Assembly (NCBI GenBank): GCA_964519305.1
Contig: CAZFHY010000010.1
Location: forward strand, 1 to 64,000
DNA length: 64,000 bases
Direction of reading: 5' to 3'
DNA from: Candidatus Undinarchaeota archaeon
GTDB taxonomy: Archaea > SpSt-1190 > JASMDC01
A program made the translations under genes and the position numbers. Below, in pieces: positions 30,531-60,366 of this stretch. The notes beneath the pieces were generated by a model, which saw only the letters and a list, made by a program, of their open reading frames with translations, did no database searches and was not told where the DNA came from. The first letter of the stretch is position 1, and each line of letters starts with the position of its first letter.

Positions 30531-31405
30531 GTACGCAGCTCGTCCCTGAACCGCAATCCCATCATCCGATAGGCCAGACGCGCGCATGTGAAGTCGCTCG
30601 CATGACCTCCGTCGGCGGGCGTCAGCTCCACGACATCGCAGCCTACGACGTTCCTTGATCCGAACACGACTTCGAGTAGAGAAACTACGTCGTACCAGTC
30701 CAGACCCCCGGGCTCGGGTGTACCGGTGTGCGGGATCACCGATGGGTCGAACACATCCATATCGACGGACACGTACACGTTCGCCTTAAGGTGCATGATC
30801 ACGTCATCCCAGTCACGTTTCCCCCGTGCTTGAGGTGCCATGACGACCTGGATATCCTCGTCACGTATCCGCTCGGCTTCAGGCGAACTCATGCTACGCA
30901 CGCCGACCTGAACGGTCGAGCTCACCGTTTCTCTGATCCTTGCCATGGTGCACGCATGGGAGAGCGGCTCCCACTCGTACTCGTCGCGCAGGTCAGCATG
31001 CGCGTCAAGGACGAGCACCGATAGCCCCGTGTTATCACGAGCGCAGGCGCGCACTGCCCCGACCGTTACCGAATGCTCTCCACCGAGCACTACGGGAAAG
31101 GCACCCCGTGAGAGGATGTCTGCCACTTGCGACTCCACGCGTCCTAGCACGTCATTAGTGTCACCGGTCACCTCCACGGGCGACTCGGTCACGATCCCTA
31201 GTGCTGCCGGTGTAACACGGAGTGCCTCGTCGAACAGCTCCATGTGTTGAGAGGCCTCTATTATGGCACCCGGTCCTCTAGCAGCACCGCTGTGCCATGT
31301 CGCGGTCCCATCGAAGGGGACAGGGAGCACCGCTATGCGGGCAGTTGCAGGATCGACCCGGTCCGCAGGGATTGCAGCAAAGGTAAGTTCGTCCTGTTCA
31401 GGCAC
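30527..31405 (-). CDS. speB: Agmatinase
   Basis: GGEHS, DAHADLR, D.DVFDPS, GTPEPGG and DVVE motifs. Confidence 0.93.
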   Translation of the reverse strand: MPEQDELTFAAIPADRVDPATARIAVLPVPFDGTATWHSGAARGPGAIIEASQHMELFDEALRVTPAALGIVTESPVEVTGDTNDVLGRVESQVADILSRGAFPVVLGGEHSVTVGAVRACARDNTGLSVLVLDAHADLRDEYEWEPLSHACTMARIRETVSSTVQVGVRSMSSPEAERIRDEDIQVVMAPQARGKRDWDDVIMHLKANVYVSVDMDVFDPSVIPHTGTPEPGGLDWYDVVSLLEVVFGSRNVVGCDVVELTPADGGHASDFTCARLAYRMMGLRFRDELRT

Positions 31406-31552
31406 GATTGCATCGTCCGCGGTAGCCTTTTTTATGTGTTCCTATGGCTCCCTCTCGAACTGTCACCACTGCGTAATGACAAACTATATATACTCCTTTA
31501 GCGTACTATATACTTGCCCAATAGATGGGGCTATGGAAAAGGTGATCTTGTC

Positions 31553-34500
31553 ATGGAAAGGGGAAAGGAATTACAATTGTTCGCGGTTCTTGCCGCGTTA
31601 GTACTCTTCGTGCTAGTAACGGCCGAAGATACGAAGGTTTGCTGCTATAACGGCGTAACGGCCCAGTACGAGCTTCTCGACACCGCTGACGGTAAGGTCG
31701 ACGGGAGTTGTAATCCTGCTGATGGCGGTGAGCTGAAATATAGCTTCATGGACATGAGCTACTGTTCTTCAAGTGAGAACGCTCAAACGGAGACCTCTCC
31801 ATCGCCGAGCCCTTCACCAGCGGCGACAGAGGGACCGAGTCCCTCACCAGAGGCGGCTGCATCACCGAGCCCCTCGCCGGAGCCCACTCCTTCACCTACA
31901 CCAGCACCTACAGGGACGCCCGACGAGGCCGTTGGCCAGGACCGGTGGGGGACATCATCCACGTTCCTCTACGGCGACGGCACCCTGTCAGGTAACTACA
32001 AGTACAGGTACCAGAACGGTCGCTGGCAGATCGAGATATCCGCCCCGCCCGATTATGCCTTGAAGTTCAGGGACATCACCGAAGAATGGCTCGAACAGAA
32101 CGAAGGCAACGTGATGGGCGGTCATTTTAAAGAGATCACCAAAGAGCTCGCTAAAAGGAACTATAAGGACGGAATGCAGTACCTCTGGGACCACATGCGC
32201 AGTACAAAGGGATGGCTTGGAGTGGAACACTCCATCAAAATCCTCTCCGATGATGGAGATGTCAAATATGGTCATGATTCGGGGGATGACAAGTATGAGG
32301 ATTTCAGGAATGGGATGCAGGGATCCATCGCCGAGAATCCCTGCGCGTTCGCCGATGTACGGATGCACGTCAACGGTGCGCCCACGGGCGATGACAAACG
32401 ACTCTACTCCGTCGAGTTCTGCATCCTGAGAGGCAAGGACGGAGATGGAAAGGAGTACGAGGACCGGAACGATGATAAACCCGGATACAGCGAGGAAGCG
32501 TGCATCGACTATCTCAAGAAGCACGGTCTGCGTGACAAGGACGGTAAGAAGATCGGGGTCGATGAACGCGGGGAGGGTCACCAGCTCACTCTCGTCTATG
32601 CAGATAGCGGCCAGATGTTCTCCACCGGTGCGCTGGGCGTGGACGTGTACGGTGAGAACGGTCAGAACAAGGTCATCGAATCCCTAGATCCGGCCGTGTC
32701 ATCGTACGCACCCGATTACAAACCCACATATGCCTCAACGCTCCAGGAGGAGCAGGTCACTGGTGCCGACCAGGCCGCTGAGCAGGTGGAGGTCGCATCG
32801 GACTGGCAGCAGGATGCCATCGATGCCACTAGCGACGAGGTGGAGCGGGCTGCTGAAGAGGCCGCGAAGGAAGCGGCCGAGGCCGCGGAAAAGAAGGCTG
32901 AAGGTCTACAGCCACTCGACTTCGCCGCGCTCAAGTGCCCTGACAGCGGTGAATACAGCAACGCTGGGGAGTTCAACGCAGAGTACGCCTCCATGGCAAA
33001 AGAGCTCGCCGTCTTCTATGCCCAAGTCACCGGATACCTCGAGGTCCTGCGCACGTCGGTGAAGACGCAGCAGGACAATTGTCACGAGGCCATCGACTCG
33101 TTCACTGGACAGTACGCCGTCAGCTGCGAGATTAAGGACCTCAAGGACAAGGAGGCAAAGGACCTGGAGCTTACTGTAGTGGAGGACGCTTTTGATCCGG
33201 GGATCTGTTCCAAGGCGGTCGTCGATCATTGCCTGAAGGACGAGCTGTGGAAATGCAGCAAGGACCTCAGCGATGAGACCGCGGGCAAGGTTACGACCTG
33301 CGAGATGTGCACGGTCGAGCCGTGCTGTATCGGAACGGACTGTAAGGCATGCGCTAAGGCGGAGAACAACGAGTACGAGAAGCTACCGAAATGCACGGAA
33401 TCTTCAGGTGTCATCTGCCGTCAGCAGTTCGAATGCTGCACGAACACAGGTACAGACATACTCACTGAAGCCTTCCTCCCCCAAGAGGAATGTGCCTTCA
33501 TGGGAGGGTTTTGGGGTAACTGCCCTCCCGAGCTCGAATTCACGAATGATGAGGAGTTCGGAAGGTACGGGAGCTATCTGTGCTCACAACATTACCTGTC
33601 AACGACTGCCGCGTGCAAGTGTACAAAGAGCGGTATAAAGAAGGCCGAGTGCATCGTTATGCGGTACAATATGATCTGGGACGAAACAGATCGTAATGAC
33701 AAGGTCATCCCCGAGGAAGAGAAGTCCGATACAACAGAAGAGGAATCATCTTCCGAGGAAAGCACTGAGACCACGGAAGAGGAGACGGCTACCGAGGAAG
33801 GGGATGAGGCCACAGAAGAGGGAACGACCGACGAGGAGGATGCCGGACCGACGGACGAGGAGAAGGAGCAGAAGAAGACCCTCGATACTGAACCCTTCGG
33901 CCTCGCCAGTTGCCAACCAAAAGGATCGCTGGAGCTCGGTGATGGCGCAGAGCCGTACATCAAGACCGAGAAAGGAAGACACACCGTAGTCGACCCCATC
34001 AAGGTCGACGCGTGCCAGCGTCAGGTCGCTGACCTCAAGGACCTGTGCATCCTGGACGGAGCGAGCATATTGTTCGACGACGATAAGAAGCGCGGTCCCA
34101 CCGAGGTGCTTGCTAAGCTCGATACTCTCATCACCACCATGAACGGGTATGTCGCGGGTATGAAGGACTCGGCGCAAGTGGCCGAGGAGATGAAGGAACA
34201 GGGCGACGAGACGCTCGAGAACATCGACTCCGATGCCATCGATCCGGAGCTGGTCGACAAGTTCGAGGAGCTGCTGACAAGGGACGCTGACAAGGTCCAG
34301 GACACGCAGAAGGACCTCAAGAACGTAATCACATTCGTCAAGGGCCAGCTGATGGCCGACCTCTCGAACATCCATTTCTTCAAGCACGTACCGTCCTTCG
34401 CCGTCGTGGCGTCAAAGGATTGGCGGTACGAAGCACGATGCAATCCGTTCCAGAAACCTCACTTCGACGAGAAGTGCGAACCGATCGGGGACGGTGAAGA

Positions 34501-37500
34501 GACGGAAGAAGGGACTGAGGACGAACAGCCCGAGGATACTACCGATGAGGGCGGCGAAGAAGGCAGTGAGGAGAAGGTCGATCCATTCAACGAGGAGGTA
34601 ACATGCGAGGGACCCGGAGCGCCATCTCCGTTCTGGTGCCCGCTCAAAGAGCGTGGCGGATGCAACGCCACACAAATAACGGTCGTAGTCGCTGATACGA
34701 ACCCTGATTCCTGGGACGACCGCAAGCTGCTCGACCTACTTAGGAACGTGAATCCCGATGACCTTTTCATCAATGAGGAGAAGTGCTCCGAGTACAACAC
34801 CGAGGACGGTGGCGGTACGGCCGTCGATGAAGGCGATGTGCCGCCCGTCGTCGACACCGGCGGGACACCCTGGTACGGTTCCATCACACCGGGCGAGGAC
34901 ATCCCCGAAACGGAGAAGGACCCGCTCGTACAGTGCTGCCAGCGCATCTTCGGTATCGAGGATTCCGCCTGGGCAGGCGGTGGTATCGTCGACACGGCCC
35001 GGAGCTGGCTTGGTGTACCCTATGTGTTCGGCGGTACCAGCCGCTCGGGGTGCGACTGCTCAGGCCTTACTATGAACGTGCTCAAGGAGAACGGCATCAA
35101 TGTGCCGCGGACCGCGTCCCAGCAGTACTACGCCTGCGAGAGCAACGGTGGTACGTACGTGGACTGGGGCGACCTCCAGGCGGGCGATATCGTCTTCTTC
35201 GAGAACACCTACAAGCCCGGGGTCTCCCATGTGGGCGTCTATGCGGGCGACGACCGGATGATCCATGCGCCCAAACCGGGCGACGTGGTCAAGATCGTCC
35301 AGCTCTCCAACTCGTACTTCCGCGAGCACTGGACCGGTGGATGTCGGTACGTGGAGGGCGGTGCAAGCTACGAGGCGCTCGACATCGACTGGTGCGAGGA
35401 CGACACTGAAGAGCTGTGCTGCCAGGGCCCTGGCCTAGAGCTGGAAAAGAAGATCACCGAGCAGGAGTGCGGGCTCACGTGCGAGGAGCTGTGCGAGGGC
35501 AAGTACGAGCGCCATTCGTACAAGTATCTCGTCTGTCGCCATAAGTGCGGAGCCCGTGACGAGCAGTGCTCGGAAAAGCCCGAGGAGACGGCCTGCGAGG
35601 TCGATGGGATGGACGGTCTGTGCTGCGATGAGAAGTGCATGGTCCACGCCCTCATGTGCGCGGGCCGGGTGGAGGCATGCGTCGGCTCCCTGAGCCTCGA
35701 TCCCTGCACCTATGACGACGAGGACGGCGTGTGCTGCGGCGGGCGCTGTCTCACCGGCGAGAAGGACTGCAGCTCGTGCAAGGACATCACCGTGTGGGCC
35801 CTCAATCCCGAGACCGGTCTGTGCGATAAGTTCACCAATACCTGTGACGTACCCGACGGTTGGATCGACTGCGAGAACTTCGGGTGCGACACCGACGAGG
35901 ACGAGTTCCTCGACTGCTCCAAGGACGGCGAACTGGGCATGTGCTGCGGGAAGAAGTGCGCTCTCAACGCTGAGGACTGTGTGCCCGATGACAGCTGCAA
36001 GGGCATGGGCGACGGCGTCCCGTGCTATGCCAAGGACGTGCCTGGTGTGTGCTGCGGCGAGAAGTGCGCCGTGGGCGGTACCAGGTGCGGCGAGTGCGTA
36101 CAAGCGACGACCCATGCCAAGGACCCGGAAACGGACACGTGCAAGGAGTTCCCGACACCTTGCGACGTACCGTACGGGTACACTGCCTGTGAAGGGTACG
36201 GTTGTACCGGCCTCATCGATGGCGCCGCATGCACCAAGGATGATGAGCGCGGTATCTGCTGCGGCGACGGGTGCGTTGTGGATGCCACCGGATGCGTACA
36301 GGATACAACCCCCTGCGAAGGAAAGGCAGAAGGTGGAGCATGCGAGTCCGATGGTCAGAACGGCGTGTGCTGCGACGGTCATTGCGCGCTCGGCGGCTCA
36401 ATCTGTGGCGTCTGCGCCCAGGTCATCACATTCGCCCTCGATAAGACAACAGAGCAGTGCGAGCAGTACCCGACACCATGCGACGTGCCCAAGGGAGCAC
36501 CCCCGTGCATCGTCGAGAGCTGCCTCTCCGAATGTCAGAACGAGTTCCCTGAGAACCCGTCCCTGGCCCGCAACTGTCGTGAACTGTGCGAGACCATGGA
36601 CATCTCCTGTGAGGAGCGATGCATCATGGACTTCAACGGACGCGACGAGCGCCTTGCGTGTATCGAGCGCTGTCCCGGGGTGATCACCGAACAGATGTCC
36701 GAGAGCCTCAGATGGTGCGAGGAGGACTGCATCGACTTCAACAACGGAGAACCAGCGCCCACCCTGCTATGCTTCAGGCTGTGCCGTGCGATCCACCCGC
36801 GGATCCACGTGACCTTCGCCCTGCTCCGCGACGGTCAGGAGGCCGAGTCGTTCTTCACCGGCGAGAACCCACGAATGCGGGTCGAGGTGGAGAACCGTGG
36901 TAGTGCAGGATTCGCGGGCGACATGAACGTCGCGCTGCGGGTGCTCGACGCCTGCGAATGCGAGCCCTGTCCGGACGACTACATGTGCAGCTGCGACTGC
37001 GAAGAGGAGGAGCGCCAGGTGTTCTCGCTCGATAACATCATGCTCGCCCCCGGCGAGAAGGCGCGGTACCTCACCGACCCGGTCCGCCTGCAGAGCGAGC
37101 TGGCCGGTACGACGGTCCAGCCGGTGGCTACTGTGAGCGATACCTACGACCAGGTCATAGGCAAGCCTCTTGGCAGTTTCTACGGTGTGAGCGAGGCCGA
37201 GAAGATGGCGGTTAACGATGCGTGGTTCCTGGTCAACGACCGTGAGCGCGCGACCGCCGCCTATCCCGGCGAGTATGCCGTGGGTTTCGTGGTGTTCTCC
37301 ACTGATCAGGTGCCCGTGACGCTCGAACTGTTCATGGTCGGATGGGACGGAGCTCCCATCGAGGGCATGGACACGTCCCAGACCATCACCTGGCCCACAA
37401 GGATGGAGACGTTCACCACAGGCGAGCTAGATGTCGATACAGCCCACGTGGACTTCGTCATCCGCCTCGGGTACAAGGTCACGGACGCATCGGGTACGGT

Positions 37501-38188: not shown

Positions 38189-38216
38189 GATAGACCATAA
38201 GAGAGGTCCATGAGAT

Positions 38217-41200: not shown

Positions 41201-44200
41201 GCTCCCCGGTCAGGACGCCGAGGAGGGTGACGACGATCCACTAGTCCAGTGCTGCCAGCGTCTCTTCAACACCGAGACCGTGACGGGGACAGGGGGCGCC
41301 ATCGCCTACACGGCGCACAGCTGGCTGGGCGTTGCATACGCGTTGGGCGGCTCCGACCGCGTCGGCGTCGACGGTCCAGGTCTCGTGCTGGGCGTCATGC
41401 GCGAGAACGGCTTCGAGCTCCCCCGGACGGCCGCGGCACAGCTGGGATCTTGCGAGCAGCTGGGCGGTATGCGGATCGCCTGGAACGTGCTCCGACCCGG
41501 CGATCTTGTATTCCTCAAGGACGATGGATCGACGGACGTGTCCCACACCGGAGTATTCGTGGGCGATGACCTCATCGTCAACGCACCGGGTCCCGAGGGC
41601 GTTGTGCGGCTTGACAAGCTGTCCACCTTGCGCCACCGGTGGTCAGGCGGATGTCGGATCGGTTCAAGCGCATCGTCAGATGCAATTGTCGTCAGCTGGT
41701 GCCAGGAGGAGGTAGATGAACTGTGCTGTCGCGGTCCCGGCCTCGAGCTCGAACTGGCCATCTCCGAGGAGGCCTGTGGTATGTCCTGCGACGAGCTGTG
41801 CGACAGGAAGCATACACGCCACACGGTAGCCCACACGCTCTGCCGTCATGCATGCGGTGCACGGGACGAGCAGTGCGACGGCAAGACCGACGAGAGCGCG
41901 TGCGAGGTCGATAGCGTCGAGGGCCTGTGCTGCGAGGAGAAGTGCATGGTTCACGCATTGATGTGCGCGTCTCGTGTCGAGGTCTGTATCGATATAAGAG
42001 ACGGGGAGCAGTGCTCCTTTGGTGGTGATGACGGTATTTGTTGCGGTGGTCGCTGCCTCACCGGCGGCGGTGCGTGCACGCCCTGCGCAGTGGGCCCGAC
42101 ATGGGCCAAGGACCCCGCGAACGGGGAGTGCGAGCAGTTCGAGAGCGTCTGCGACGTCCCGACGGGACGGACCGATTGTGGCCCCTGTTCCGAGGTGGAC
42201 GCATTCGGCAAGGACCCGGCGACCGGGAAGTGCGAGCGGTTCGACTCCCCATGCGACGTCCCCTACGGCTGGTCGGAGTGCGAGGGACACGGATGCGCAT
42301 CTCTTGACGACGGTGCCGTGTGCTCCATCGATGGCACGGCGGGCATCTGCTGCGGTGGCGGCTGCACTGTCGGGGCCACATCTTGCATGGACGATCCAAC
42401 CGTATGTACAGACGTGGGCGAGGGCGAGGCCTGTGCAACCGACTCAGCGGGCGTATGCTGCAACGAACGCTGCGCGGTAGGTGCCGTCGCGTGCGGCGAA
42501 TGCCCCCGGGCGGTCACCCATGCCTACGATCCATCGAGGGGCCAGTGCGTGCGATACGACACGCCGTGCGATGTACCCAAGGGATGGCCGCCTTGCATCG
42601 CGTCCTCCTGCCTCACTGAGTGCCAGAACGCCCACCCGTCCAACCCTGCCCTTGCCCATGCCTGCCGGGAGCAGTGCGAGGGCGCTGACATATCCTGCGA
42701 GGAGCGGTGCCTGGCGGCGAGCGACGACACGGACGAGCGCACCAGCTGCATCGGGCAGTGCTCGAACGACGTCACCAGCAGCATGCCCGAGACGCTCAGG
42801 TACTGCGAGACTGGCTGCCTTAGTGATGACGACGCCCAGACTGGCCTCTGCATGAGCATGTGCCGGGCGACGCATCCGCATGTGAACATCGAGCTCGCTA
42901 TCGTCAGGGGAGAGCAGGAGGCCTCGTCCCTGTTCACGGGCGAGCGACCACGCCTTCGCATCATCGCCGAGAACCGCGGTTCGCGTGAGTTCGCCGGGAG
43001 CATCGAGGCGGTGCTGCGCGAGTTGTCCGCCTGCACGTGCCCGGCCTGTCCGTCAGGGGATGTATGCCACTGCGGCTGCGACACAGGAGAGCGGCCCGTG
43101 GTGCGCTTCGACGACGTGATGCTCGGCGTCGGGAAGAAGACCACCTATCTCTCCGATCCGTTCATTCTACCCGCGACACTGGCAGGTACGACGCTGCAGC
43201 CGGCCGCGACCCTCCGGGATGCCAGTGGTAGGACCGTGGGAGCACCACGCGGTCCTTTCTACGGTGTGGCTGCACCGGGACCCGTCTCGATCGATGACGC
43301 CCAGTTCACCGTCGACGGGAGGGAGCGGGCCACCACCGCCGCCCCCGGAAGCACGGCAACGGCCTCGCTCATCCTCACCACCGCCCGCGCGCCCACCAGC
43401 GTCACGGTATCCGTGGTCACTGCTGTCGGCGTCCCGGTCGAGGGCACCGAACGCATCCACGAGCTTCCCTTCCCCGTCCAGAACAAAGCCCTTGCCACGG
43501 GCCCGCTGACCGTCACCAGCGCTCAAGCTGGATCGCTGTTCCGCATCAGTTACCGAATCGAGTCCGGTGGTGTCGAGCTGGCCGCTGGAGTGCTCGATGA
43601 GCAGGGCAGACCGCCCGGTATGTGCGACGGTCGGGAGCTCACCACTGAGTGCGAGCAACTCCACCTGCAGGCCCATCGTTCGTACCCCCACGCGTTCCTG
43701 GAGGTGCTCCGACCTAAACTCGTGGCGACCGACGCGTCGTTCATGGACGCGGACGGCCGCGAGGCCATACTTATGCCCGCTGGGAAGACAGTCCGGGCCA
43801 TGGTCGAACTGGCGAACCCGTCTGGACGTCCCTTCACAGGCACGGTGACCGTGTCTGTGACGCAGGAGGACGGCTCTACTGCCCTTGGTTCAGATCAGAC
43901 CATCGAGGTCGAGCGTGGGCTCGATGGATCGTTGTCACGGTCGTTCGAGACAGCGAGCTTCCAGACCACTGCAGGCCGTTCGTACCGCATCCGCGTCCTT
44001 GGGAAGGACCGCGACGGTGCGGTCTGGCTCGATGAGATCGTACAAACTGTCCTCTTCCCCATGGCCGGGCTCAACGTTCCGGAGAGCGCTGTCAGCGGCA
44101 TCAGCCGCAACGACGTGTTCACATCCGTTGACCACGAGGACTGCCGTGCCAAGGTAACCTGCGTGCAATGCCTCTCGACCTGCGAGCTGCGTGTCGAGCG

Positions 44201-44264
44201 GACGCGCTGCACCGTCACACCTTTTAACTGTGACTGCCATTGCACCATGGAGGCGATCTCATGA
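38217..44264 (+). CDS. Giant secreted Cys-rich protein 2 with GH73-like glucosaminidase, M23 peptidase and inactive NlpC/P60 domains
   Basis: Signal peptide; YNIDPA.AL.FF..ESSYG..GNIR..YAP; HHGLD, YGHL, HLHFE; NlpC/P60 with DGPG in place of DCSG. Confidence 0.88.
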   Translation: MVRGFLSIGRMAAALAVAVALLLSGIPTVAADGDENPCAGLDIMAGTMNLPHGGGTDLNHVAFCIPAGTEGAAGCADHLKDEYGLEPVEGTDNQFEYTGEEELDPEAVLAEPGGERGQLVMSSSGLDVRINGAPSITEDGIRAWLSEKNPALLEADPDLPLTFYETSIEYNIDPAIALSFFQMESSYGKAGRATSTLSIGNIREYGDGPAIDGFRAYDTWSDGVEDYYQLLSGDVYVSSGLTTVEQIVPKYAPAADNNVPTQYINSVRATAEAIQQYEEVMGPDGGISTGSGGGARGCYPHRPTPRRLPDCPKMDNFDNVVDYLTEIEAMFDDMLKFYEPLVNELKHFRSVLFAEQAKCHGAINDFASRYGVPCEMDAFSASEEGEEEESEPEAEEDAGGSEAEPEEDTYEPSTGIEGDLHPEEEVTLSVYGPEVRDAHPLEALVLSDGFGPALCAAAVKDNCLADDAWQCRKGEGHLPAVVGTCSMCVAEGCWAGTGCGTCGEEDDSDDSEGEKKLTPVYTDGSSGTYPRSEDEALTGGTDPFGVKECKGEGLAEGERTYVVIERGVHANVEALELQRCQQAAIDVKDLCMLDGSGDFLGDGGVHGPTDVLVGLDDLIRDIESFVFDLGKLTDEVHKMAEETKKDLDGKDAINWPTAGSQTSGYGPRGALCADANLCKPHFHHGLDISQAGTVPVIAAADGKVSGLVKESSGSCYGNAVFLDHGNNLQTRYGHLRSLEVSMSQVVDQGQRIGLQGNTGCSTGQHLHFEIRVNGQSVDPLEVLEGKSNVFLLFHEAEIFSTMSKNAENIKPTQEALKAFVTFLREYTNDVCGAGGTSEGDVPSFLVGASDEWANGESCDVSFPPLFDGDDCTSTQDADTEEDPPEEEEEEAGTKPEESGEHLDDCPSEKHRGGCIATTTTTSVSDSNSDALDESIEILLSLAGWYPDELFLDDEKCFGYNTEGGNPSVSGSASPGGSPDPGSESFGTDEGAEDDLLPGQDAEEGDDDPLVQCCQRLFNTETVTGTGGAIAYTAHSWLGVAYALGGSDRVGVDGPGLVLGVMRENGFELPRTAAAQLGSCEQLGGMRIAWNVLRPGDLVFLKDDGSTDVSHTGVFVGDDLIVNAPGPEGVVRLDKLSTLRHRWSGGCRIGSSASSDAIVVSWCQEEVDELCCRGPGLELELAISEEACGMSCDELCDRKHTRHTVAHTLCRHACGARDEQCDGKTDESACEVDSVEGLCCEEKCMVHALMCASRVEVCIDIRDGEQCSFGGDDGICCGGRCLTGGGACTPCAVGPTWAKDPANGECEQFESVCDVPTGRTDCGPCSEVDAFGKDPATGKCERFDSPCDVPYGWSECEGHGCASLDDGAVCSIDGTAGICCGGGCTVGATSCMDDPTVCTDVGEGEACATDSAGVCCNERCAVGAVACGECPRAVTHAYDPSRGQCVRYDTPCDVPKGWPPCIASSCLTECQNAHPSNPALAHACREQCEGADISCEERCLAASDDTDERTSCIGQCSNDVTSSMPETLRYCETGCLSDDDAQTGLCMSMCRATHPHVNIELAIVRGEQEASSLFTGERPRLRIIAENRGSREFAGSIEAVLRELSACTCPACPSGDVCHCGCDTGERPVVRFDDVMLGVGKKTTYLSDPFILPATLAGTTLQPAATLRDASGRTVGAPRGPFYGVAAPGPVSIDDAQFTVDGRERATTAAPGSTATASLILTTARAPTSVTVSVVTAVGVPVEGTERIHELPFPVQNKALATGPLTVTSAQAGSLFRISYRIESGGVELAAGVLDEQGRPPGMCDGRELTTECEQLHLQAHRSYPHAFLEVLRPKLVATDASFMDADGREAILMPAGKTVRAMVELANPSGRPFTGTVTVSVTQEDGSTALGSDQTIEVERGLDGSLSRSFETASFQTTAGRSYRIRVLGKDRDGAVWLDEIVQTVLFPMAGLNVPESAVSGISRNDVFTSVDHEDCRAKVTCVQCLSTCELRVERTRCTVTPFNCDCHCTMEAIS

Positions 44265-47200
44265 GGTCGAGGGTGCTCGCTATCCTTTGTGTACTGGCAC
44301 TAGCCCTTGCTCTCGCCAGGCCCACGGTGAGCGTGTTCGTCAACGGTGGCCAGATCCACTCATCCTCCAATGACGGGAGCGTTGCTGCCGCAAACGCTGA
44401 CGCACCTGTCACGGTAAAGTGCACCGGGAGCGACTCCCAGGAGAGCCACATCGATATGTACATCGATGACTACTCATCGGGCCAGTTCATCTGGGGCGAT
44501 GCGTGGAACAGCGTTGTCGATGTCACCTACGACGTGGAGGGCACATACTCACTGCGCTGTCAGGGCAGGGTCGACTGCGGCGCCTCGAACATGGGCCCCT
44601 CCTGTCGCACCTACATCACTGTCACAGTGCCCGTTGGAGCAGCGACACCTACACCCGGTCCTGGCGGGCCGGGAGGTCCCGGCGGCCCTGGTGGTCCTTC
44701 AGGTCCCTCAGGTCCCCTCCCCGAGGGATGCATCGAGCCGGACCACGAACGCTACTGTGACGCATACGACCGGCTGTTCTCCCCCGACAACATCCGCCAG
44801 TACGACGCATCGATCAGGTCCAACGACGGTCTTATGCCACTGGTCGTGAACGGTGACGTGTACCCGTGCTACGAGGGTTGCAGCGACGGGAAGTGCTCCG
44901 GCGGTGACGGCACGGTGGTGTACGGCTCCGGCGTAGGGAGCCATGACCGGGCCAAGGCTCTCGTGCTGGGCGCTGAGCTGGGGATGCCTGTCGTCGAGCA
45001 CACCGGCGCGGTCCCTGGCGGCAATCTGGTGCTCCTGGGCTCGAGCACGTCCAACTCGGTGCTCGATGGTGTGGAGGACGGGATGCGTGTGCGGTACGAC
45101 CAGACCACAAACAAGGTGTTCGTGGGCAGCGAGGAGCTGGACTTCACCGCGGGCGAGCTGGCCGCGCGGTACGACGCGCCATTCATCGTGGCCTTCGAGG
45201 AGCAGGGCGGACGGTTCATCGTGGCGCTGGCCGGCAACGACCAGGCGGGCACCGCGAACGCTGCCAGCGAGTTCCAGAAGAACCTGTGCGAACCCACGTT
45301 CCGGTCCACCGTGTACGGCCTGCTGAAGGGAAGCGGCCGACCCGAGCCGGTCAAGGTGGACGATGGTGGTCAGACCATCGGCGAACGCTTCTGCCGTGAG
45401 CGGGAGGACGGCGAGGCGGGCGAGGTCCACGGATACTCACCGACGGTCGACTGGACCCACACCGACACGGACCCGACACCGCTGGGCGTGCTCGACACGG
45501 GTCTCATCGCCTGTCCCGAAGGCTGGTTCGACAACACGGTCGACTTCCGCACGGACGTGCTAACCACGCTCGACAATCTCCGCGACCTGTACAAGGTGCT
45601 CGGAGCCCACCTGGAAACGCTAGAGGACGCTCTTGACCAGCAGAAGGACCACTGTGCTTCGGCCCTGGGCACTCTGGGTACATTCCAGAACCCCGGACTG
45701 GAGGACGTGGACCTGAGCGACGCCTGCGACGTCGCACCTTGGGACGAGGAGACCGTGGCTACGTCCATGGTCCCCGAGGAGTGCCACCTCCCCAGCCCCG
45801 CCCGGCCCCGGACCTACTACTCCACCTCCTACCAGCGCGTCGTCGACGTCAAGGACGTGTGCACGCTCGACGGCTCGGGCACGCTCCTGGGCGACGAGAC
45901 CACTCACGGCCCCACACGCGTACTGGACAAGGTCACGGTCATGCGCAGCTTCGTGGACCACTTCCTCACCAGTTACCCCGATCTCCGTTCCACGATCAGC
46001 TTGCTGATCGACAACGAGCTCACCGAGATATCTCTTAGCGGCGAGGAGCCCGCTAACGACGCCGTCCCGCTGGTCGAGCGCCTGTCAGCCATCCTCATAG
46101 AGATGTCCCGCGATCCCGACACTGACATGGGTGCTGAGGAGTTCAAGGCCATGCTCGCTGACCTCATCCGGATGCTCCGGACATCGTCCACTGTCGAGGA
46201 CGTCTCGACACTAGGACACGTGTACCCCGGCCTCATGCTCTCGGACAGATGCGGTCCGGGCGAGGGTGACATCACCGACGACAACACCGATGAGTGGTCG
46301 GTACGTCAGCAGCAGGCAGTCCAGGCATTGGCCGCCATCGAAGCGGAGGACGTATTCATCTCGGCCGAAGAGTGCTTCGAGTACGCGTCGCGCTCGGAGG
46401 CCGGCTGCTCACGTATCTGTCGGGAGGAGTGCGGAGCGGATGCGGGCCATTGCCAGCGTCACCTGGGTATGTGCGTATGCCACAATCCAGACGGCACCCG
46501 TACAGCGACCACCCACTCCTGCACCGGGCCCATCATCGAGGAGGATGCCAAGCACATCATCGCCTGCTGTCTCAACGACCTCGGCGGTGTCGCAGCGGTC
46601 CCCCCTGCGCTAGGCGAGGAGGGCTCCTGCTCGGGACCGGACGTGCCAGGATTGACCTTCGACATCTGCTCCGACGAGTCGGGATACCTGTGCTGCATAC
46701 CTGGCGGGCTCGAGGCGGAAGAACGGGCCGACGACACCTGCACCATGGAATGCGGGCCCATGTGCGCCCTTATCCATCCCGACGACGAGGACGCTCGCAT
46801 CGCGTGCGTGGGCACGTGCACCTCGGATGCGGGATGTACGGACCGGGACGGCGATACCTGCGTGGTGGGCGCCAGCGAGGGTGCGTGCTGCGGAGGTACA
46901 TGCGTGGCCGGAGCTTCGGGCTGCGATGCCGGCTCAGGGTCAGGCTGCGCCGGGCTGAGTGACGGCGAGGCCTGTACTAGCGCAGTGGGCGTGTGCTGTG
47001 GAGGCTCGTGCGCCCTGGACGCCACGGACTGCGGTAGTCTGAGCACCTGCAACGATATGTGCCGGGACCTCGTGGCCATCGACCAGGTGTCCGCGTGCAC
47101 CACGGTGTGCGTGGAGATGGACGTGTCCTGCGAGGAGGGGTGCGGCGCGTTCCCCGATCCGGGTCCGTGCCTGCGCAAGTGCGGTAACGGCGCCGACGAG

Positions 47201-48757
47201 GACGGTGATGGCCGAACGGACGAGGACCCCATTGACGGCCGGGACAACGACGGCGACGGGAGGATGGACGAGGACGGTCCCGGTGAGAGCGTACCATCGT
47301 CACTGGTCACCTGCCAGCGCGAGTGTCTGGACGGGGACGACGCCGTACGGTGTCTGCGTGAGTGCAAGCTATCCATGCCCCGCGTCGACGTCCGCCTGGC
47401 CATCCTTCGTGGACTTGCCGAACAGCGCACATTCTACCACGGCGAGCGTGTCCGCCTCTCGCTCGAGGTGCGCAACTCAGGGTTCCGCGCCTTCGCTGGA
47501 GCTGCCGACCTCGCACTCCATCTCCTGCCATCATGCTCCTGCCCGGAGTGCCCCCAGGGCTTCGTATGCCCATGCTCGTGCACCGAGGAACGACGGTTCG
47601 CAGGCTCGCTCTCGAGCATCGTGCTACCGCCGGGCAGCGACTACCACGCACTCACCGGAGAGATCGCCCTCAACGGCGACCTGACGGTGACGGCCGTCCA
47701 ACCGGGCGCCGTACTGCGCCGCGCAGGGGGCGAGGTAGTGCTCGACGCACGGGGCCCCATCTCGTTCATGGTGGTGCCCGACATGCTCACCGTGGCCGAC
47801 GCCTACTTCCTCCGCGACGCGGAAAGGACGACCGAGGGCTACACCGGCGAGCAGGTCGTCGGGGCTGTGACCGTGACCAGCCATACCTATCCGGCGACGG
47901 TGGAGGTGTTCCTCGCCGACGTGCAGAACCAGATGGTGGACGGCTCGGCAAAGGTCCACGAGATCGCGGGGCCTGTTCAGGAGCTCGAGCTCACAACAGA
48001 GACGCTCACACTGGCTCACGAGCACGCCAATGCGGTGTTCTCCATCGGGGTGGAGGTGCGCGACGGTGAAGGTGCCGTGGTCGGCCGCCAGGTGCTCCCC
48101 GGCCAGGGGTACGCTACCAGCCGGTGCAAAGGCCGCGTGATGAACACGTGGTGCGAAGGCGAGCGGTCCCGGGTCCGTCTGGGATATCCCGACGCGAGCC
48201 TGGAAGTGCGGCCCTTGGAGCTCGAGATAGTGGACGCCGCCTTCACAGACGCTACGAACAATCCCCTGGACGAGATGTACACCGCCGGCGAGGCCCGGGC
48301 CACGCTGACGGTGCGCAACACGGTCCCCAAGTCCTTCGTGGGCACAGTGCTCGTCCGCGCCGTGAGCAAGGAGGGTCTGGTAGTGGGCGGGAGCGAGGAG
48401 CGACGCACGATCGCCCTTGGCCGTGGAGACACGTCCGAGCTCACAGGCCAGATGTTCCCGACGACCCTGGGCGAGAATTACCGACTTTGGGTGGTCGCCG
48501 AGCACCAGGACGGAACGGTGTGGACCGACGCCCTGGTCCCGTCCAATGTCTTTATGTACGCTGAGCTCGGTGTGCTGGACCCGACAGCGACCGATGGTGA
48601 GCGCACTGACATCTACACCACTGTGTCACAGGACCCGTGCGGTATGAGCATCTACTGTGAGAACTGTCTCGTGGGATGTGAACTACGTGTGGACCGGGAG
48701 CGGTGTAAGGTCTCAAAGCGCTTCTGCGCCTGCGAGTGCGCCTCCCTGCCGCTCTAG
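44261..48757 (+). CDS. Giant secreted Cys-rich protein 3 (non-enzymatic paralog with S-layer-like domain)
   Basis: ATGA overlap with the gene 2 stop and a GGAGG SD. Signal peptide. Shares KD.C.LDG..GPT.VL and CELRV.R.RC.V...C.C.C with genes 1 and 2. Confidence 0.88.
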   Translation: MRSRVLAILCVLALALALARPTVSVFVNGGQIHSSSNDGSVAAANADAPVTVKCTGSDSQESHIDMYIDDYSSGQFIWGDAWNSVVDVTYDVEGTYSLRCQGRVDCGASNMGPSCRTYITVTVPVGAATPTPGPGGPGGPGGPGGPSGPSGPLPEGCIEPDHERYCDAYDRLFSPDNIRQYDASIRSNDGLMPLVVNGDVYPCYEGCSDGKCSGGDGTVVYGSGVGSHDRAKALVLGAELGMPVVEHTGAVPGGNLVLLGSSTSNSVLDGVEDGMRVRYDQTTNKVFVGSEELDFTAGELAARYDAPFIVAFEEQGGRFIVALAGNDQAGTANAASEFQKNLCEPTFRSTVYGLLKGSGRPEPVKVDDGGQTIGERFCREREDGEAGEVHGYSPTVDWTHTDTDPTPLGVLDTGLIACPEGWFDNTVDFRTDVLTTLDNLRDLYKVLGAHLETLEDALDQQKDHCASALGTLGTFQNPGLEDVDLSDACDVAPWDEETVATSMVPEECHLPSPARPRTYYSTSYQRVVDVKDVCTLDGSGTLLGDETTHGPTRVLDKVTVMRSFVDHFLTSYPDLRSTISLLIDNELTEISLSGEEPANDAVPLVERLSAILIEMSRDPDTDMGAEEFKAMLADLIRMLRTSSTVEDVSTLGHVYPGLMLSDRCGPGEGDITDDNTDEWSVRQQQAVQALAAIEAEDVFISAEECFEYASRSEAGCSRICREECGADAGHCQRHLGMCVCHNPDGTRTATTHSCTGPIIEEDAKHIIACCLNDLGGVAAVPPALGEEGSCSGPDVPGLTFDICSDESGYLCCIPGGLEAEERADDTCTMECGPMCALIHPDDEDARIACVGTCTSDAGCTDRDGDTCVVGASEGACCGGTCVAGASGCDAGSGSGCAGLSDGEACTSAVGVCCGGSCALDATDCGSLSTCNDMCRDLVAIDQVSACTTVCVEMDVSCEEGCGAFPDPGPCLRKCGNGADEDGDGRTDEDPIDGRDNDGDGRMDEDGPGESVPSSLVTCQRECLDGDDAVRCLRECKLSMPRVDVRLAILRGLAEQRTFYHGERVRLSLEVRNSGFRAFAGAADLALHLLPSCSCPECPQGFVCPCSCTEERRFAGSLSSIVLPPGSDYHALTGEIALNGDLTVTAVQPGAVLRRAGGEVVLDARGPISFMVVPDMLTVADAYFLRDAERTTEGYTGEQVVGAVTVTSHTYPATVEVFLADVQNQMVDGSAKVHEIAGPVQELELTTETLTLAHEHANAVFSIGVEVRDGEGAVVGRQVLPGQGYATSRCKGRVMNTWCEGERSRVRLGYPDASLEVRPLELEIVDAAFTDATNNPLDEMYTAGEARATLTVRNTVPKSFVGTVLVRAVSKEGLVVGGSEERRTIALGRGDTSELTGQMFPTTLGENYRLWVVAEHQDGTVWTDALVPSNVFMYAELGVLDPTATDGERTDIYTTVSQDPCGMSIYCENCLVGCELRVDRERCKVSKRFCACECASLPL
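44654..44716 (+). repeat. Coding (GGP/SGP)n low-complexity repeat
   Basis: PGPGGPGGPGGPGGPSGPSGP. Confidence 0.8.
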
Positions 48758-48764
48758 GGGCACC

Positions 48765-49109
48765 CTACCAGGCGGTCATCTCCTTACGGACCTCGTCGGT
48801 CCACCGCGCGATGATCCCGAGGATCCGCTGCTTGAGCTGGTCCTTGTCCTTGATAGAGTAGAAGAATGTATAACCGCCTCGGGGATTATTGGACTGGCGG
48901 CGGCGGAGGATGTTCTTTTCGGTGAGCGACATGACCGCGCGCTGCACCGTGGTCCGGTCCTTGTCGAGGTCCTTGGCTATCTCGCGTGCCATGAGCTCTT
49001 CTGCGTTGGAGAGAAGATGCATCATCACTGCGTACTCGGTCCTTGAGAGCTCGAACCCGCAGGTAACGATCTCCTTGAACGATACGGTGCGGCAGGCGAA
49101 GGTCGCCAT
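48765..49109 (-). CDS. Predicted HTH transcriptional regulator (TrmB/MarR-like)
   Basis: C.F.LS.TE, EIAK.L.KDRTTVQRA...L and GGY.F.Y motifs. Confidence 0.8.
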   Translation of the reverse strand: MATFACRTVSFKEIVTCGFELSRTEYAVMMHLLSNAEELMAREIAKDLDKDRTTVQRAVMSLTEKNILRRRQSNNPRGGYTFFYSIKDKDQLKQRILGIIARWTDEVRKEMTAW

Positions 49110-49171
49110 GGGGCGCGATCGGCACCTCATCAATATCAACCTTTCGCCCGCCGCTATGGGCGCGGGTCCGC

Positions 49172-49498: not shown

Positions 49499-49628
49499 GG
49501 TATCACGCTCTTTCGGTCGTTAGTGACCATCTCTTTACGAAGATAGAGTCATCGGGCCCTTATAAGAAAGAGAGGAGGGGTGCACAATAGACCGTTGAGG
49601 ACGCACTCCTCCCTGTGTCGGACCCGTT

Positions 49629-58959: not shown

Positions 58960-60366
<1,407 letters not shown>

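What the first reader, a model, noticed from the sequence alone, without database searches (positions are those of the whole stretch)
31553..48757. Archaeal three-gene operon of giant Cys-rich secreted proteins armed with bacterial cell-wall hydrolases
Seen: three co-oriented paralogs of about 2200, 2015 and 1500 aa, separated by a 28-nt gap and an ATGA overlap. Each has a signal peptide and no C-terminal TM anchor. Together they carry NlpC/P60, M23 and glucosaminidase-like domains. Established: these families cut the peptidoglycan stem peptide, the cross-link and the glycan backbone respectively, and archaea do not make bacterial peptidoglycan. Small archaeal PG hydrolases have been reported, but I do not recognise this scaffold. 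Inference: a heteromeric, disulfide-stabilised surface apparatus that breaches bacterial walls, for predation, parasitism on a bacterial host or necromass scavenging. No integrase, phage or secretion genes flank it, so it looks like a domesticated chromosomal system.
Basis: partly seen in the sequence, partly recalled or inferred. Interest (0 to 1): 0.93.

Follow-up and report, generated by a model that had tools for sequence, protein, structure and literature searches.

The report
Giant secreted archaeal cell-wall hydrolases
Three neighbouring genes of a marine archaeon encode huge, cysteine-rich secreted proteins that carry enzymes for cutting bacterial cell walls; they belong to a 19-member protein family found only in this archaeal lineage, which suggests that the archaeon attacks or feeds on bacteria.

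Summary
Three co-oriented paralogous ORFs (2211, 2015 and 1498 aa) lie on an archaeal contig, with a 28-nt gap and an ATGA overlap. Each has one N-terminal hydrophobic segment and no other.

P1 has an NlpC/P60 domain with an intact catalytic triad. P2 has an intact M23 domain, an NlpC/P60 domain whose catalytic Cys is Gly (also in three orthologs), and a sub-threshold GH73-like head. P3 has no recognisable enzyme.

The triplet is not a stand-alone apparatus. It is one of several tandem arrays of a family with 19 core members, about 3% of a 3.6-Mb genome. Members share a ~1100-aa scaffold: a helical bundle, Cys-rich linkers, three Ig-like beta-sandwiches and a Cys-rich cap.

This family holds all 4 NlpC/P60, 4 of 5 M23 and the only SLT match in the genome. 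No Mur ligase was found. The scaffold was found only in this genus-level lineage among 1.84 billion representative proteins.

The peptidoglycan-targeting reading is plausible. The heteromeric complex and the disulfide bonding are untested.

Giant extracellular murein-degrading proteins in DPANN archaea and bactericidal archaeal hydrolases are already published. I therefore rate this a new variant of a known kind.

The parts
31483..31514 (+). A/T-rich TATA-like boxes upstream of P1; candidate archaeal promoter of the three-gene array
   Evidence: Read directly (ACTATATATAC and TACTATATAC, 40-70 nt upstream of the ATG). This is an inference; no transcript data.
31553..38188 (+). P1, 2211 aa. Signal-peptide-like N-terminus (aa 1-24), Pro/Ser linker (aa ~76-125), unknown head (aa ~126-455), helical and Cys-rich scaffold, NlpC/P60 domain, Cys-rich repeats, C-terminal module
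34037..34111 (+). KD.C.LDG...GPT.VL scaffold motif in P1
   Evidence: The strict motif hits 3 of 6823 ORFs of at least 150 aa, and those are the three genes of the triplet.
35012..35341 (+). NlpC/P60 domain of P1 with Cys (DCSG), His (SHVG) and His (IHAP) in place
   Evidence: Pfam 88.8 bits; genome search 95.3 bits; alignment to PDB 3h41; paralog alignment.
36533..38185 (+). Family-defining C-terminal module of P1: Cys-rich helices, three beta-sandwiches and a Cys-rich cap
   Evidence: HMM E 1e-196.
38217..44264 (+). P2, 2015 aa. Signal-peptide-like N-terminus (aa 1-31), GH73-like head, scaffold, M23 domain, catalytically dead NlpC/P60 domain, Cys-rich repeats, C-terminal module
38703..39017 (+). 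Glucosaminidase (GH73)-like head of P2; a sub-threshold assignment
   Evidence: Pfam 22.4 bits and 28.7 bits against cut-off 30.2. In the Atlas, 26 of 30 hits are PF01832 clusters at score 0.92. No PDB sequence match.
40260..40553 (+). M23 metallopeptidase domain of P2 with HxxxD (HHGLD) and HxH (HLH) motifs
41328..41624 (+). NlpC/P60-like domain of P2 with the catalytic Cys replaced by Gly (DGPG). The same change is in orthologs P0004-P0006
42564..44261 (+). C-terminal module of P2. The model shows a helical Cys-rich bundle, three beta-sandwich domains and a ~50-aa Cys-rich beta cap
   Evidence: AlphaFold2 model, mean pLDDT 84.6. Foldseek and VIA matches to adhesin stalk, CARDB and MG-type beta-sandwiches.
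44261..48757 (+). P3, 1498 aa. Signal-peptide-like N-terminus, unknown head (aa ~25-400), scaffold and C-terminal module; no recognisable enzyme
45536..46207 (+). Long-helix bundle of the shared scaffold in P3 (aa ~426-649); it contains the KD.C.LDG motif at 45851-45925
   Evidence: Model of P3 aa 400-1498, mean pLDDT 71.5, with helices at model residues 27-72, 118-135, 152-192 and 202-249. Motif.
47081..48754 (+). C-terminal module of P3
   Evidence: (HMM E 9e-177).

Best explanation
The three genes are tandem paralogs of a lineage-private family of giant, acidic, Cys-rich secreted proteins. The family has 19 core members in this genome.

Shared build. All members share a collinear scaffold of about 1100 aa:
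- a Sec-type signal peptide;
- a variable N-terminal head;
- a long-helix bundle;
- Cys-rich linkers;
- three Ig-like beta-sandwich domains;
- a Cys-rich C-terminal cap.
Catalytic or binding 'cargo' domains are inserted at fixed points of this scaffold.

Cargo in this array:
- P1 carries an active-looking NlpC/P60 endopeptidase, which would cut the stem peptide.
- P2 carries an active-looking M23 endopeptidase, which would cut the cross-bridge or stem, plus a probable GH73-type glycosidase head. It also carries a catalytically dead NlpC/P60 domain that may only bind the substrate.
- P3 is an enzyme-less scaffold member.

Proposed mechanism (inferred, not shown). The proteins are exported and oxidatively folded outside the cell. 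They then act on peptidoglycan of bacteria, because the archaeon has no Mur ligases. The conserved C-terminal stalk would serve as the common base or handle. The fast-diverging N-terminal half would contact the target.

The data cannot say whether the outcome is killing of competitors, predation, attachment to a bacterial partner or scavenging of wall debris.
For: Domains and motifs:
-.
- PHROGs matches are confined to these two enzyme domains and point to phage tail lysins and endolysins.

Export:
- A single N-terminal hydrophobic segment in each protein.
- 18 of 19 family members have an N-terminal hydrophobic region.

No own substrate:
- Mur_ligase_M gives 0 matches in a 99.83%-complete genome, while the control rang in 12 of 14 genomes.
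- No MCR match.

Family census:
- An HMM of the C-terminal module finds 19 ORFs at E <= 2e-143 and 5 weaker ones.
- 6 of the 19 carry M23 and/or NlpC/P60.
- Those six hold all 4 NlpC/P60 matches, 4 of 5 M23 matches and the only SLT match of the genome.

Lineage restriction:
- 2 of 41 related genomes have the module, namely G000 and its congener G001.
- None of 15 class mates and none of 24 other archaea searched have it.
- Among 1.84 billion representative proteins, 59 hit at E <= 1e-3 and 24 at <= 1e-30. Of the 10 clusters looked up, the members that carry a source name are MAG proteins labelled 'Candidatus Undinarchaeales archaeon' or 'Methanopyri archaeon', 'hypothetical protein' entries without an organism, and two TARA reads; 7 clusters carry no name.

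Conserved array with mosaic divergence:
- The same-genus genome has P1-P2-P3 in the same order.
- P1 is 34-45% identical in its N-terminal half and 83-95% in its C-terminal half.
- P2 is 50-68% identical, and its GH73-like head is not alignable.
- P3 is 84-93% identical.

Oxidative-folding context:
- Three membrane-anchored proteins each carry two DsbA-like domains with CPFC or CPYC motifs.

Not a chimera:
- Archaeal MCM and topoisomerase VI are on the same window.
- Single-run contigs of 26 kb and 59 kb cover 30001-50000 with 0 differences. These runs may be the source samples.
Against: - No activity, localisation or expression data exist.
- No recognised peptidoglycan-binding module was found in the proteins. 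LysM and PG_binding_1 have 0 matches in G000 and G001.
- The GH73 assignment is below Pfam's cut-off and has no PDB sequence match.
- One of the two NlpC/P60 domains in the array is catalytically dead, and P3 has no enzyme.
- 13 of the 19 family members carry no wall hydrolase. Among them, 1 has C-type lectin, 1 has FG-GAP and 2 have Kazal_2 (one of these just below cut-off); 9 have no Pfam match above cut-off. The general role of the family may therefore be adhesion rather than lysis.
- NlpC/P60 and M23 families also include members with non-murein substrates (established knowledge).
- AnmK was absent and MurQ was below cut-off. This gives no support to a MurNAc-based nutritional use.
- No anchor was found, so 'surface-displayed' and 'released' cannot be told apart.
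Confidence: 0.6

Rival explanations
1. P1, P2 and P3 assemble into one heteromeric, disulfide-linked lytic apparatus. The enzyme-less P3 acts as the structural subunit, and P1 and P2 act as the enzyme-bearing arms.
For: - Operon-like spacing: a 28-nt gap and an ATGA overlap that would allow translational coupling of P2 and P3.
- The same gene order in the congener genome.
- Complementary cargo across the three proteins.
- P3 is conserved at 84-93% while P1 and P2 vary.
- The strict KD.C.LDG...GPT.VL motif is private to these three genes.
Against: - Tandem arrays of 2-3 paralogs of the same family occur elsewhere: C1:9290-29961, C1:456479-465140 and C10:95504-105124. Tandem duplication is therefore a sufficient explanation.
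- Each paralog has its own signal peptide and a complete scaffold.
- The helical bundle is modelled as a self-contained intramolecular bundle with block pLDDT of 77-93 over most of it.
- There is no interface evidence of any kind.
Confidence: 0.2
2. The family consists of adhesins or cell-envelope proteins. The hydrolase-like domains do not cut bacterial murein. They would remodel the archaeon's own glycoprotein envelope, process the scaffold itself, or only bind ligands.
For: - The C-terminal module resembles adhesin stalk and CARDB-type beta-sandwiches.
- Paralogs carry lectin, FG-GAP and Kazal domains.
- One NlpC/P60 domain is dead yet conserved.
- No known murein-binding domain is present.
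Against: - Four different murein-cleaving families (NlpC/P60, M23, SLT and GH73-like) are concentrated in one scaffold family.
- Catalytic motifs are intact in P1 NlpC/P60 and P2 M23.
- No Mur ligase is available for a self-made substrate.
Confidence: 0.2
3. Assembly chimera or bacterial or phage contamination: the genes are not archaeal.
For: - The enzyme domains are of bacterial or phage type.
- Genome contamination is estimated at 4.29%.
Against: - MCM, topoisomerase VI, KsgA and DUF655 lie on the same 64-kb window.
- Contigs of single runs span from the flanks through all three genes with 0 differences.
- The exact P2 sequence is on 13 contigs, the longest 257,738 bp.
- Paralogs lie on 11 contigs of the genome, and the congener has 23 matches.
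- GC of the region is 0.56-0.66 against about 0.60 elsewhere in the window.
Confidence: 0.02

Closest known systems
[quoted passage not shown] 2021, PMC8204110; passages read)
   Same: - Giant archaeal proteins (up to about 3000 aa) predicted to be extracellular.
- They carry a bacterial-type murein-cleaving domain.
- They were proposed to bind or degrade bacterial walls.
- They occur in DPANN-type archaea.
   Different: - Enzyme type: SLT there; NlpC/P60, M23 and GH73-like here. No SLT was found in P1-P3.
- Lineage: a different one, with a 3.6-Mb rather than a very small genome.
- Scaffold: here Cys-rich with a private C-terminal module, not found in 39 other archaeal genomes.
- Sequence membership in fam00969 could not be tested because supplements are closed.
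Modular archaeal peptidoglycan hydrolases such as the M23 + PG_binding_1 proteins of Halogranum salarium (Strock et al. 2025, PMC12352652; abstract, section 6 and passages read)
   Same: - Secreted archaeal proteins with an M23 domain of bacterial type.
- The producer has no murein.
- Patchy distribution, read there as an arms-race signature.
- Bactericidal activity was shown there for two such enzymes.
   Different: - Those are proteins built from one catalytic domain plus a recognised wall-binding domain.
- Here the proteins are 1500-2200 aa and carry up to three hydrolase-type domains.
- No recognised binding domain is present here, so that paper's filter, as described in its section 6, would not have listed them.
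- No activity is shown here.
Giant 'Archaeovorin' proteins of predatory Omnitrophota (West-Roberts et al. 2023 preprint, 10.1101/2023.11.21.568195; passages read)
   Same: Very large secreted multidomain proteins with wall-degrading domains, proposed to serve attachment to and degradation of the prey cell wall across the domain boundary.
   Different: - The direction is reversed: there a bacterium attacks archaea.
- Those proteins are far larger (above 30,000 aa).
- No sequence relation was seen.
- Here the theme is many paralogs of 1-3 thousand aa on one scaffold.
Phage tail-associated lysins and tape-measure proteins, and bacterial multi-catalytic autolysins, with M23 and NlpC/P60 domains
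   Same: - The same catalytic families embedded in long structural proteins.
- Best PHROG matches are minor tail proteins, tape-measure proteins and endolysins.
- PDB matches include YkfC-type (3h41), MepS, TagE and ShyA.
   Different: - No phage genes were found among the 13 of 20 flanking ORFs that have Pfam matches.
- Similarity is limited to the roughly 100-130 aa catalytic domains.
- The rest of each protein matches nothing.
Beta-sandwich stalks of Gram-positive adhesins (antigen I/II C123, ester-bond repeat domains) and the archaeal CARDB domain
   Same: The three tandem beta-sandwich domains of the C-terminal module align to these folds. VIA Z is 10.6 to 8f9l_B (rmsd 3.1, 116 aligned) and 8.4 to CARDB 3idu_A (rmsd 2.8, 99 aligned). 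Foldseek E is 1e-9 to 6e3f.
   Different: - Sequence identity is 6-12%.
- Whole-module TM scores are only 0.2-0.3.
- There is no Pfam CARDB match.
- The Cys-rich helical entry and Cys-rich cap have no counterpart in those proteins.
- A common Ig-like fold says little about function.

Membership tests
NlpC/P60 (PF00877, cysteine peptidase clan CA) | Profile match above the curated cut-off | tested here: met
   P1 scores 88.8 bits and P2 scores 43.9 bits against cut-off 23. The genome search gives 95.3 and 50 bits.
NlpC/P60 (PF00877) | Catalytic Cys-His-polar triad, in P1 | tested here: met
   DCSG, SHVG and IHAP align with the corresponding residues of PDB 3h41 and of the paralogs.
NlpC/P60 (PF00877) | Catalytic Cys-His-polar triad, in P2 | tested here: not met
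   The Cys position is Gly (DGPG) in P2. It is also Gly in orthologs P0004, P0005 and P0006. The third residue is Asn in P2. The fold is kept, so P2 is a probable pseudo-enzyme.
Peptidase M23 (PF01551) | Profile match above cut-off, with the HxxxD and HxH zinc and catalytic motifs | tested here: met
   97.6 bits against cut-off 28.7. HHGLD and HLH align to TagE 5j1l and other M23 structures.
GH73 glucosaminidase (PF01832) | Profile match above cut-off and the catalytic Glu | tested here: inconclusive
   22.4 bits and 28.7 bits against cut-off 30.2. In the Atlas, 26 of 30 hits are PF01832 clusters at score 0.92, sharing 158-160 of 256 features. No PDB sequence match at E <= 10. A QMESSYG segment is present, but its equivalence to the catalytic-Glu motif is recalled, not aligned here.
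Modular archaeal peptidoglycan hydrolases as defined by Strock et al. 2025 (catalytic domain plus recognised wall-binding domain) | A recognised cell-wall-binding domain in the same protein | tested here: not met
   No such Pfam domain in P1-P3. LysM and PG_binding_1 have 0 matches in G000 and G001.
DPANN giant SLT-domain proteins (Castelle et al. 2021, fam00969) | Murein-like lytic transglycosylase (SLT) domain | tested here: not met
   No SLT match in P1-P3. The only SLT match of the genome (27.2 bits against cut-off 21.3) is in the paralog at C19:1049-7411, outside the window. Membership of that paper's cluster is not testable here because supplements are closed.
CARDB / Ig-like adhesin stalk domains | Profile match or a clear structural match of the beta-sandwich domains | tested here: inconclusive
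   No Pfam match. VIA Z is 8.4-10.6 to single beta-sandwich domains. That range is close to the typical best Z of 7-8 quoted in that output for models without a clear match.
Archaeal C-terminally anchored surface proteins (PGF-CTERM / archaeosortase type; definition recalled) | C-terminal hydrophobic helix after the sorting motif | tested here: not met
   No hydrophobic window in the C-terminal parts of P1-P3. The proteins end in a conserved Cys-rich segment, C..C...CEL.VD...C......C.C.C.
Operon (one transcript) | Same strand, short or overlapping spacers, one promoter, co-transcription | tested here: inconclusive
   Strand and spacing are met. TATA-like boxes lie upstream of P1 only. Co-transcription could not be examined.

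The most novel reading that the evidence does not exclude
This lineage is an archaeal predator or obligate antagonist of bacteria, and the family is its lytic arsenal.

- The lineage belongs to a class whose other genomes here are 0.6-1.2 Mb, yet its own genome has grown to 3.6-3.8 Mb.
- The growth would come largely from giant secreted proteins: ORFs of 800 aa or more add up to 23.5% of the genome length (ORFs of both strands summed without removing overlaps).
- The 19-member family would be a surface-mounted arsenal. A conserved Ig-like stalk and Cys cap dock the proteins on the archaeal envelope.
- Hypervariable N-terminal halves recognise prey.
- Arrays such as P1-P2-P3 work together to cut the glycan, stem peptide and cross-link of prey walls.

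This would be an archaeal mirror image of the archaea-eating Omnitrophota.
Probability: 0.15. Interest if true: 0.9.

Novelty: new variant of a known kind. Interest (0 to 1): 0.62.

Why it matters
Antagonism of archaea against bacteria is barely documented.

What is already published:
- One paper shows that two archaeal peptidoglycan hydrolases, each built of a catalytic and a wall-binding domain, kill a bacterium (PMC12352652).
- One genomic survey proposes giant SLT proteins in tiny DPANN archaea (PMC8204110).

What this locus and its family add:
- A private, heavily expanded scaffold gathers almost every murein hydrolase domain of the genome.
- It sits in an archaeon with a 3.6-Mb genome, whose 15 class mates in the genomes searched have 0.6-1.2 Mb.
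- The enzyme-bearing members diverge in a mosaic fashion between sister species, as expected for proteins in an arms race.

If activity is confirmed:
- The family would supply new multi-enzyme antibacterial architectures.
- It would give a testable handle on whether some marine archaea of oxygen-poor waters live off bacteria.
- It would offer a case study of genome expansion in a clade known for genome reduction.

Tried and rejected
- Complex prediction on the last 189 aa of P1, P2 and P3, with P3 as partner: verdict 'no answer', score 0.00 against mark 0.32, controls not folded. This is no evidence either way.
- The look-up of sequencing runs: 8 DNA holders from 2 studies, no RNA holder listed. 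Expression and co-transcription therefore stay unexamined.
- Cys parity as a proxy for all-paired disulfides. After the N-terminal hydrophobic region, P1, P2 and P3 have 128, 104 and 76 Cys, all even. Across the family only 12 of 18 are even (one member had no detectable hydrophobic region), one-sided p = 0.12, and the cleavage sites are uncertain. Not significant.
- The search for related loci in genome contigs with P2: 8 pattern matches, none confirmed.
- The search for homologous proteins with the P2 C-terminal module: 4 proteins including P2 itself. With the P3 scaffold: 2 proteins. Both searches are limited by length and shared words.
- Atlas search with the P3 head (aa 25-400): no usable hit.
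- PDB sequence search with the P2 head (P2 aa 122-300): only chance-level rows, E >= 0.5.
- Fold search of the long P3 model. The list is filled by the beta-sandwich part (model residues 608-1041). The helical bundle matched only designed helical bundles at Z 8-9.5, which the tool rates as uninformative for helices.
- PMBR (pseudomurein-binding repeat) search: 0 matches, but the control rang in none of 14 genomes, so it is uninformative.
- VKOR: 0 matches.
- Amidase_2 and Amidase_3: 0 matches in G000 and G001.
- Literature searches found no paper that describes this protein family. The library is partial and supplements were closed. The S2 Table of PMC12352652 and the supplementary tables of PMC8204110 and PMC10936187 could list these proteins or genomes.

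Full report
OBSERVATION

The + strand of the window holds three long ORFs: 31514..38188, 38217..44264 and 44240..48757.
- The P1 ATG is preceded by GGTGA at 31541-31545 and by two TATA-like boxes at 31483-31514.
- The P1 stop and the P2 ATG are 28 nt apart.
- The P3 ATG overlaps the P2 stop as ATGA.
- P1 and P2 are 40% identical over 1326 alignment columns. P2 and P3 are 32% identical over 674.
- Each protein has a basic N-terminus followed by a hydrophobic stretch and a small-residue site. Apart from one single window at P1 residue 1611 inside a Cys-rich repeat, no other hydrophobic window of TM strength was found.
- The proteins contain 5.1-5.8% Cys (128, 104 and 77 residues) and are acidic, with pI about 4.3.

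ORGANISM

The same window encodes MCM, topoisomerase VI B and A, KsgA, DUF655, an arginase-family protein and a phosphoribosyltransferase.
- The window is contig C10 of a 3.63-Mb genome in 42 contigs, 99.83% complete and 4.29% contaminated, with an archaeal 16S rRNA.
- The closest named public record is 96% identical in MCM and is labelled 'Candidatus Undinarchaeales archaeon'. The next ones, at about 50%, are Woesearchaeota and Nanoarchaeota MAGs.
- In the genome collection the genus has one other species (G001, 3.8 Mb). The 15 genomes of the same class are 0.6-1.2 Mb.
- A paper on DPANN archaea of oxygen-deficient zones reports MAGs of about 4 Mb of a lineage it calls SpSt-1190 and suggests they may be free-living (PMC10936187, passages). 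It does not mention these proteins in the passages I saw.

NOT A CHIMERA
- Eight metagenome runs from two studies hold all sampled words of 36001-46000.
- Contigs of single runs, 26,251 and 59,006 bp, cover 30001-50000 without a difference. These runs may be the source samples.
- The exact P2 sequence is on record from 13 contigs.

DOMAINS
- P1 has one Pfam match: NlpC/P60 at aa 1154-1262, 88.8 bits. Its Cys (DCSG), His (SHVG) and His (IHAP) align with those of the Bacillus cereus YkfC-type structure 3h41.
- P2 has M23 at aa 682-779, 97.6 bits, with HHGLD and HLH aligned to solved M23 enzymes.
- P2 also has an NlpC/P60 match at aa 1038-1135, 43.9 bits. The catalytic Cys is Gly and the third triad residue is Asn. 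The Cys-to-Gly change is shared by the three orthologs found in public data. This looks like a conserved pseudo-enzyme, perhaps a binding module (inference).
- The N-terminal head of P2 matches Glucosaminidase (PF01832) only below the curated cut-off: 22.4 and 28.7 bits against 30.2.
- A language-model look-up puts 26 of 30 neighbours of that head in PF01832 clusters at score 0.92. There is no PDB sequence match.
- Two of the three orthologs (P0005, P0006) lack the PF01832 match. In the G001 copy only 120 of the head's 269 residues align to P2.
- P3 matches nothing in Pfam, NCBIfam or PHROGs.

THE TRIPLET BELONGS TO A LARGE PRIVATE FAMILY
- P2 finds 34 matching stretches in its own genome.
- An HMM of the last ~540 aa (alignment A1, 18 sequences) finds 19 ORFs of 1090-2852 aa at E <= 2e-143, plus five weaker ones.
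- Together the 19 make up 36,192 aa, 3.0% of the genome.
- All-against-all BLAST of the parts upstream of this module shows further collinear blocks shared by all members.
- A 19-sequence alignment gives a family consensus of about 1100 aa with about 50 conserved Cys.
- The strict motif KD.C.LDG.{8,11}GPT.VL occurs in exactly three ORFs of the genome, the triplet itself.
- Other members also sit in tandem: C1:9290-29961 (three genes), C1:456479-465140 (two) and C10:95504-105124 (two).

CARGO

Pfam scans covered the window proteins and the N-terminal parts of the 16 other members.
- 6 of 19 carry M23 and/or NlpC/P60.
- One has three C-type lectin domains.
- One has FG-GAP repeats.
- Two have Kazal_2, one of them 0.1 bit below cut-off.
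- Nine have no match above cut-off.

Seen from the genome side:
- All 4 NlpC/P60 matches lie in this family.
- 4 of 5 M23 matches lie in this family.
- The only SLT match does too, inserted in the C-terminal module of the C19 member.
- So does the only, sub-threshold, glucosaminidase match.
- Amidase_2, Amidase_3, LysM and PG_binding_1 have no match in G000 or G001.
- Mur_ligase_M has no match, and its control rang in 12 of 14 genomes. The organism is therefore unlikely to build murein or pseudomurein stem peptides.
- MCR is absent.

DISTRIBUTION
- The C-terminal module was found in 2 of 41 related genomes: G000 with 25 matches and G001 with 23. It was found in none of 15 class mates and none of 24 other archaea.
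- A profile search of 1.84 billion representative proteins gave 59 hits at E <= 1e-3 and 24 at <= 1e-30. Ten clusters were looked up. Their named members are MAG proteins labelled 'Candidatus Undinarchaeales archaeon' or 'Methanopyri archaeon', 'hypothetical protein' entries without an organism, and two TARA reads. Seven clusters carry no name.
- NCBI's pipeline names the P2 ortholog 'peptidoglycan DD-metalloendopeptidase family protein'.
- M23 domains do occur in 4 of 4 genomes of one small-genome family of the same class, some in ORFs of 1203-2297 aa. Only the M23 stretch matches P2 there.
- NlpC/P60 was found in none of the 15 class mates.

STRUCTURE
- The C-terminal module of P2 was modelled with the paralog alignment (mean pLDDT 84.6). 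It shows a Cys-rich helical entry, three beta-sandwich domains and a ~50-aa Cys-rich beta cap.
- Foldseek and VIA-align relate the beta-sandwiches to adhesin stalk repeats, CARDB, MG domains and sugar-binding Ig-like domains. Sequence identity is 6-12% and whole-module TM scores are 0.2-0.3.
- A model of P3 aa 400-1498 (mean pLDDT 71.5) adds a bundle of long helices, 40-46 residues each, with block pLDDT of 77-93 over most of it. The bundle contains the KD.C.LDG motif and is followed by low-confidence Cys-rich linkers.

EVOLUTION

G001 has the three genes in the same order. Divergence is mosaic:
- P1 is 34-45% identical up to residue 1100, but 95% in NlpC/P60, 83% in the Cys repeats and 92% in the C-terminal module.
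- P2 is 50-68% identical throughout, with its head replaced.
- P3 is 84-93% identical throughout.
- MCM of the closest named record is 96% identical.

So the N-terminal halves of the enzyme-bearing members turn over much faster than the base. I read this, by inference, as the mark of the part that meets a changing target.

MECHANISM: SHOWN AND INFERRED

Shown by sequence:
- export-type N-termini;
- intact NlpC/P60 and M23 catalytic motifs;
- a conserved dead NlpC/P60 domain;
- a shared scaffold;
- no Mur ligase in the genome.

Inferred:
- secretion by Sec;
- oxidative folding, for which three membrane-anchored proteins with two DsbA-like CPFC/CPYC domains each are available, while VKOR is absent;
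- action on bacterial peptidoglycan;
- the C-terminal stalk as the common base and the N-terminal half as the target-contacting end.

Not resolved:
- anchored versus released;
- single proteins versus a complex;
- killing versus attachment versus scavenging.

AnmK is absent and MurQ is below cut-off. A MurNAc-based diet therefore has no support from these two markers.

COMPARISON WITH WHAT IS KNOWN
- Castelle et al. [quoted passage not shown] They proposed that these bind and degrade bacterial walls (PMC8204110, passages).
- Strock et al. 2025 found modular hydrolases in 175 of 3706 archaeal genomes. They showed that two M23 plus PG_binding_1 proteins of a haloarchaeon kill a bacterium (PMC12352652). 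Their screen required a recognised wall-binding domain, which these proteins lack.
- West-Roberts et al. 2023 linked giant genes of Omnitrophota to wall degradation of prey (preprint, passages).

The idea of large secreted murein hydrolases in archaea is therefore not new. What I found nowhere in four literature searches is:
- this scaffold family;
- its expansion to 19 paralogs;
- its near-monopoly on the genome's murein hydrolase domains;
- the combination of up to three hydrolase-type domains in one chain;
- its host, a large-genome member of a small-genome class.

Supplements were not readable.

VERDICT
- The heteromeric disulfide-linked apparatus is unsupported (0.2).
- Contamination is very unlikely (0.02).
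- Novelty: new variant of a known kind.
- Interest: 0.62.

Noticed in passing
G000 whole genome: The genome is crowded with giant ORFs. There are 205 stop-to-stop ORFs of at least 800 aa, summing to 23.5% of the genome length, and 58 of at least 1500 aa. They include one of 8478 aa (C1:224416-249849) and one of 4178 aa with 15.3% Cys (C11:61167-73700). Some may be spurious frames in a 60% GC genome.
   Followed up: partly
G000, e.g. C19:7415-10246, C10:92567-95494, C15:31571-34432: A second paralogous family has 22 members. Most (20 of 22) are about 930-1050 aa, have an N-terminal hydrophobic segment and end in a conserved GNPGNW...C motif. 10 of the 22 lie within 6 kb of a giant-family gene, often directly downstream. 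Three representatives have no Pfam match above cut-off. None lies next to the triplet in the window.
   Followed up: partly
G000 C9:94073-95950 (-), C18:66986-69298 (-), C3:80478-82949 (+): Three proteins of 626-824 aa each carry two DsbA-like Thioredoxin_4 domains with CPFC or CPYC motifs behind a single N-terminal membrane helix. They are candidates for extracytoplasmic disulfide formation in an organism with many Cys-rich secreted proteins.
   Followed up: partly
G000 C19:6107-6421: The only SLT (lytic transglycosylase) match of the genome, 27.2 bits, sits in an insertion that splits the C-terminal module of the family member C19:1049-7411. That member also has an M23-like domain whose first zinc-ligand His is Asp.
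   Followed up: partly
G005, G007, G009, G011: All four genomes of one small-genome family (0.9-1.2 Mb) of the same class have M23 domains. Some are in ORFs of 1203-2297 aa that share nothing else with P2. Large M23-bearing proteins may be a wider theme in this class.
   Followed up: partly
window 48765-49139 (-): A 124-aa winged-helix regulator (TrmB/MarR-like, E 6e-8) lies convergent to P3 and ends 8 nt after the P3 stop. A link to the array is not shown.
   Followed up: no
window 53458-55101 (-), 55264-57434 (+), 58960-60366 (+): Downstream of the array are a 547-aa WD40 repeat protein, two adjacent radical-SAM proteins and a 468-aa Laminin_G_3 (concanavalin-like lectin) protein.
   Followed up: no
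window 28241-29989 (-): A 582-aa ORF with no Pfam match lies between the metallophosphoesterase and the phosphoribosyltransferase genes. It overlaps the start of the latter by about 100 nt.
   Followed up: no
G001:C53:1-14877: In the congener the 14.9 kb downstream of the P3 ortholog has no tblastn match to the genes that follow P3 in the window. The right-hand synteny is therefore not conserved, although the triplet is. The left side could not be judged because the contig ends about 450 bp upstream of the P1 ortholog.
   Followed up: partly
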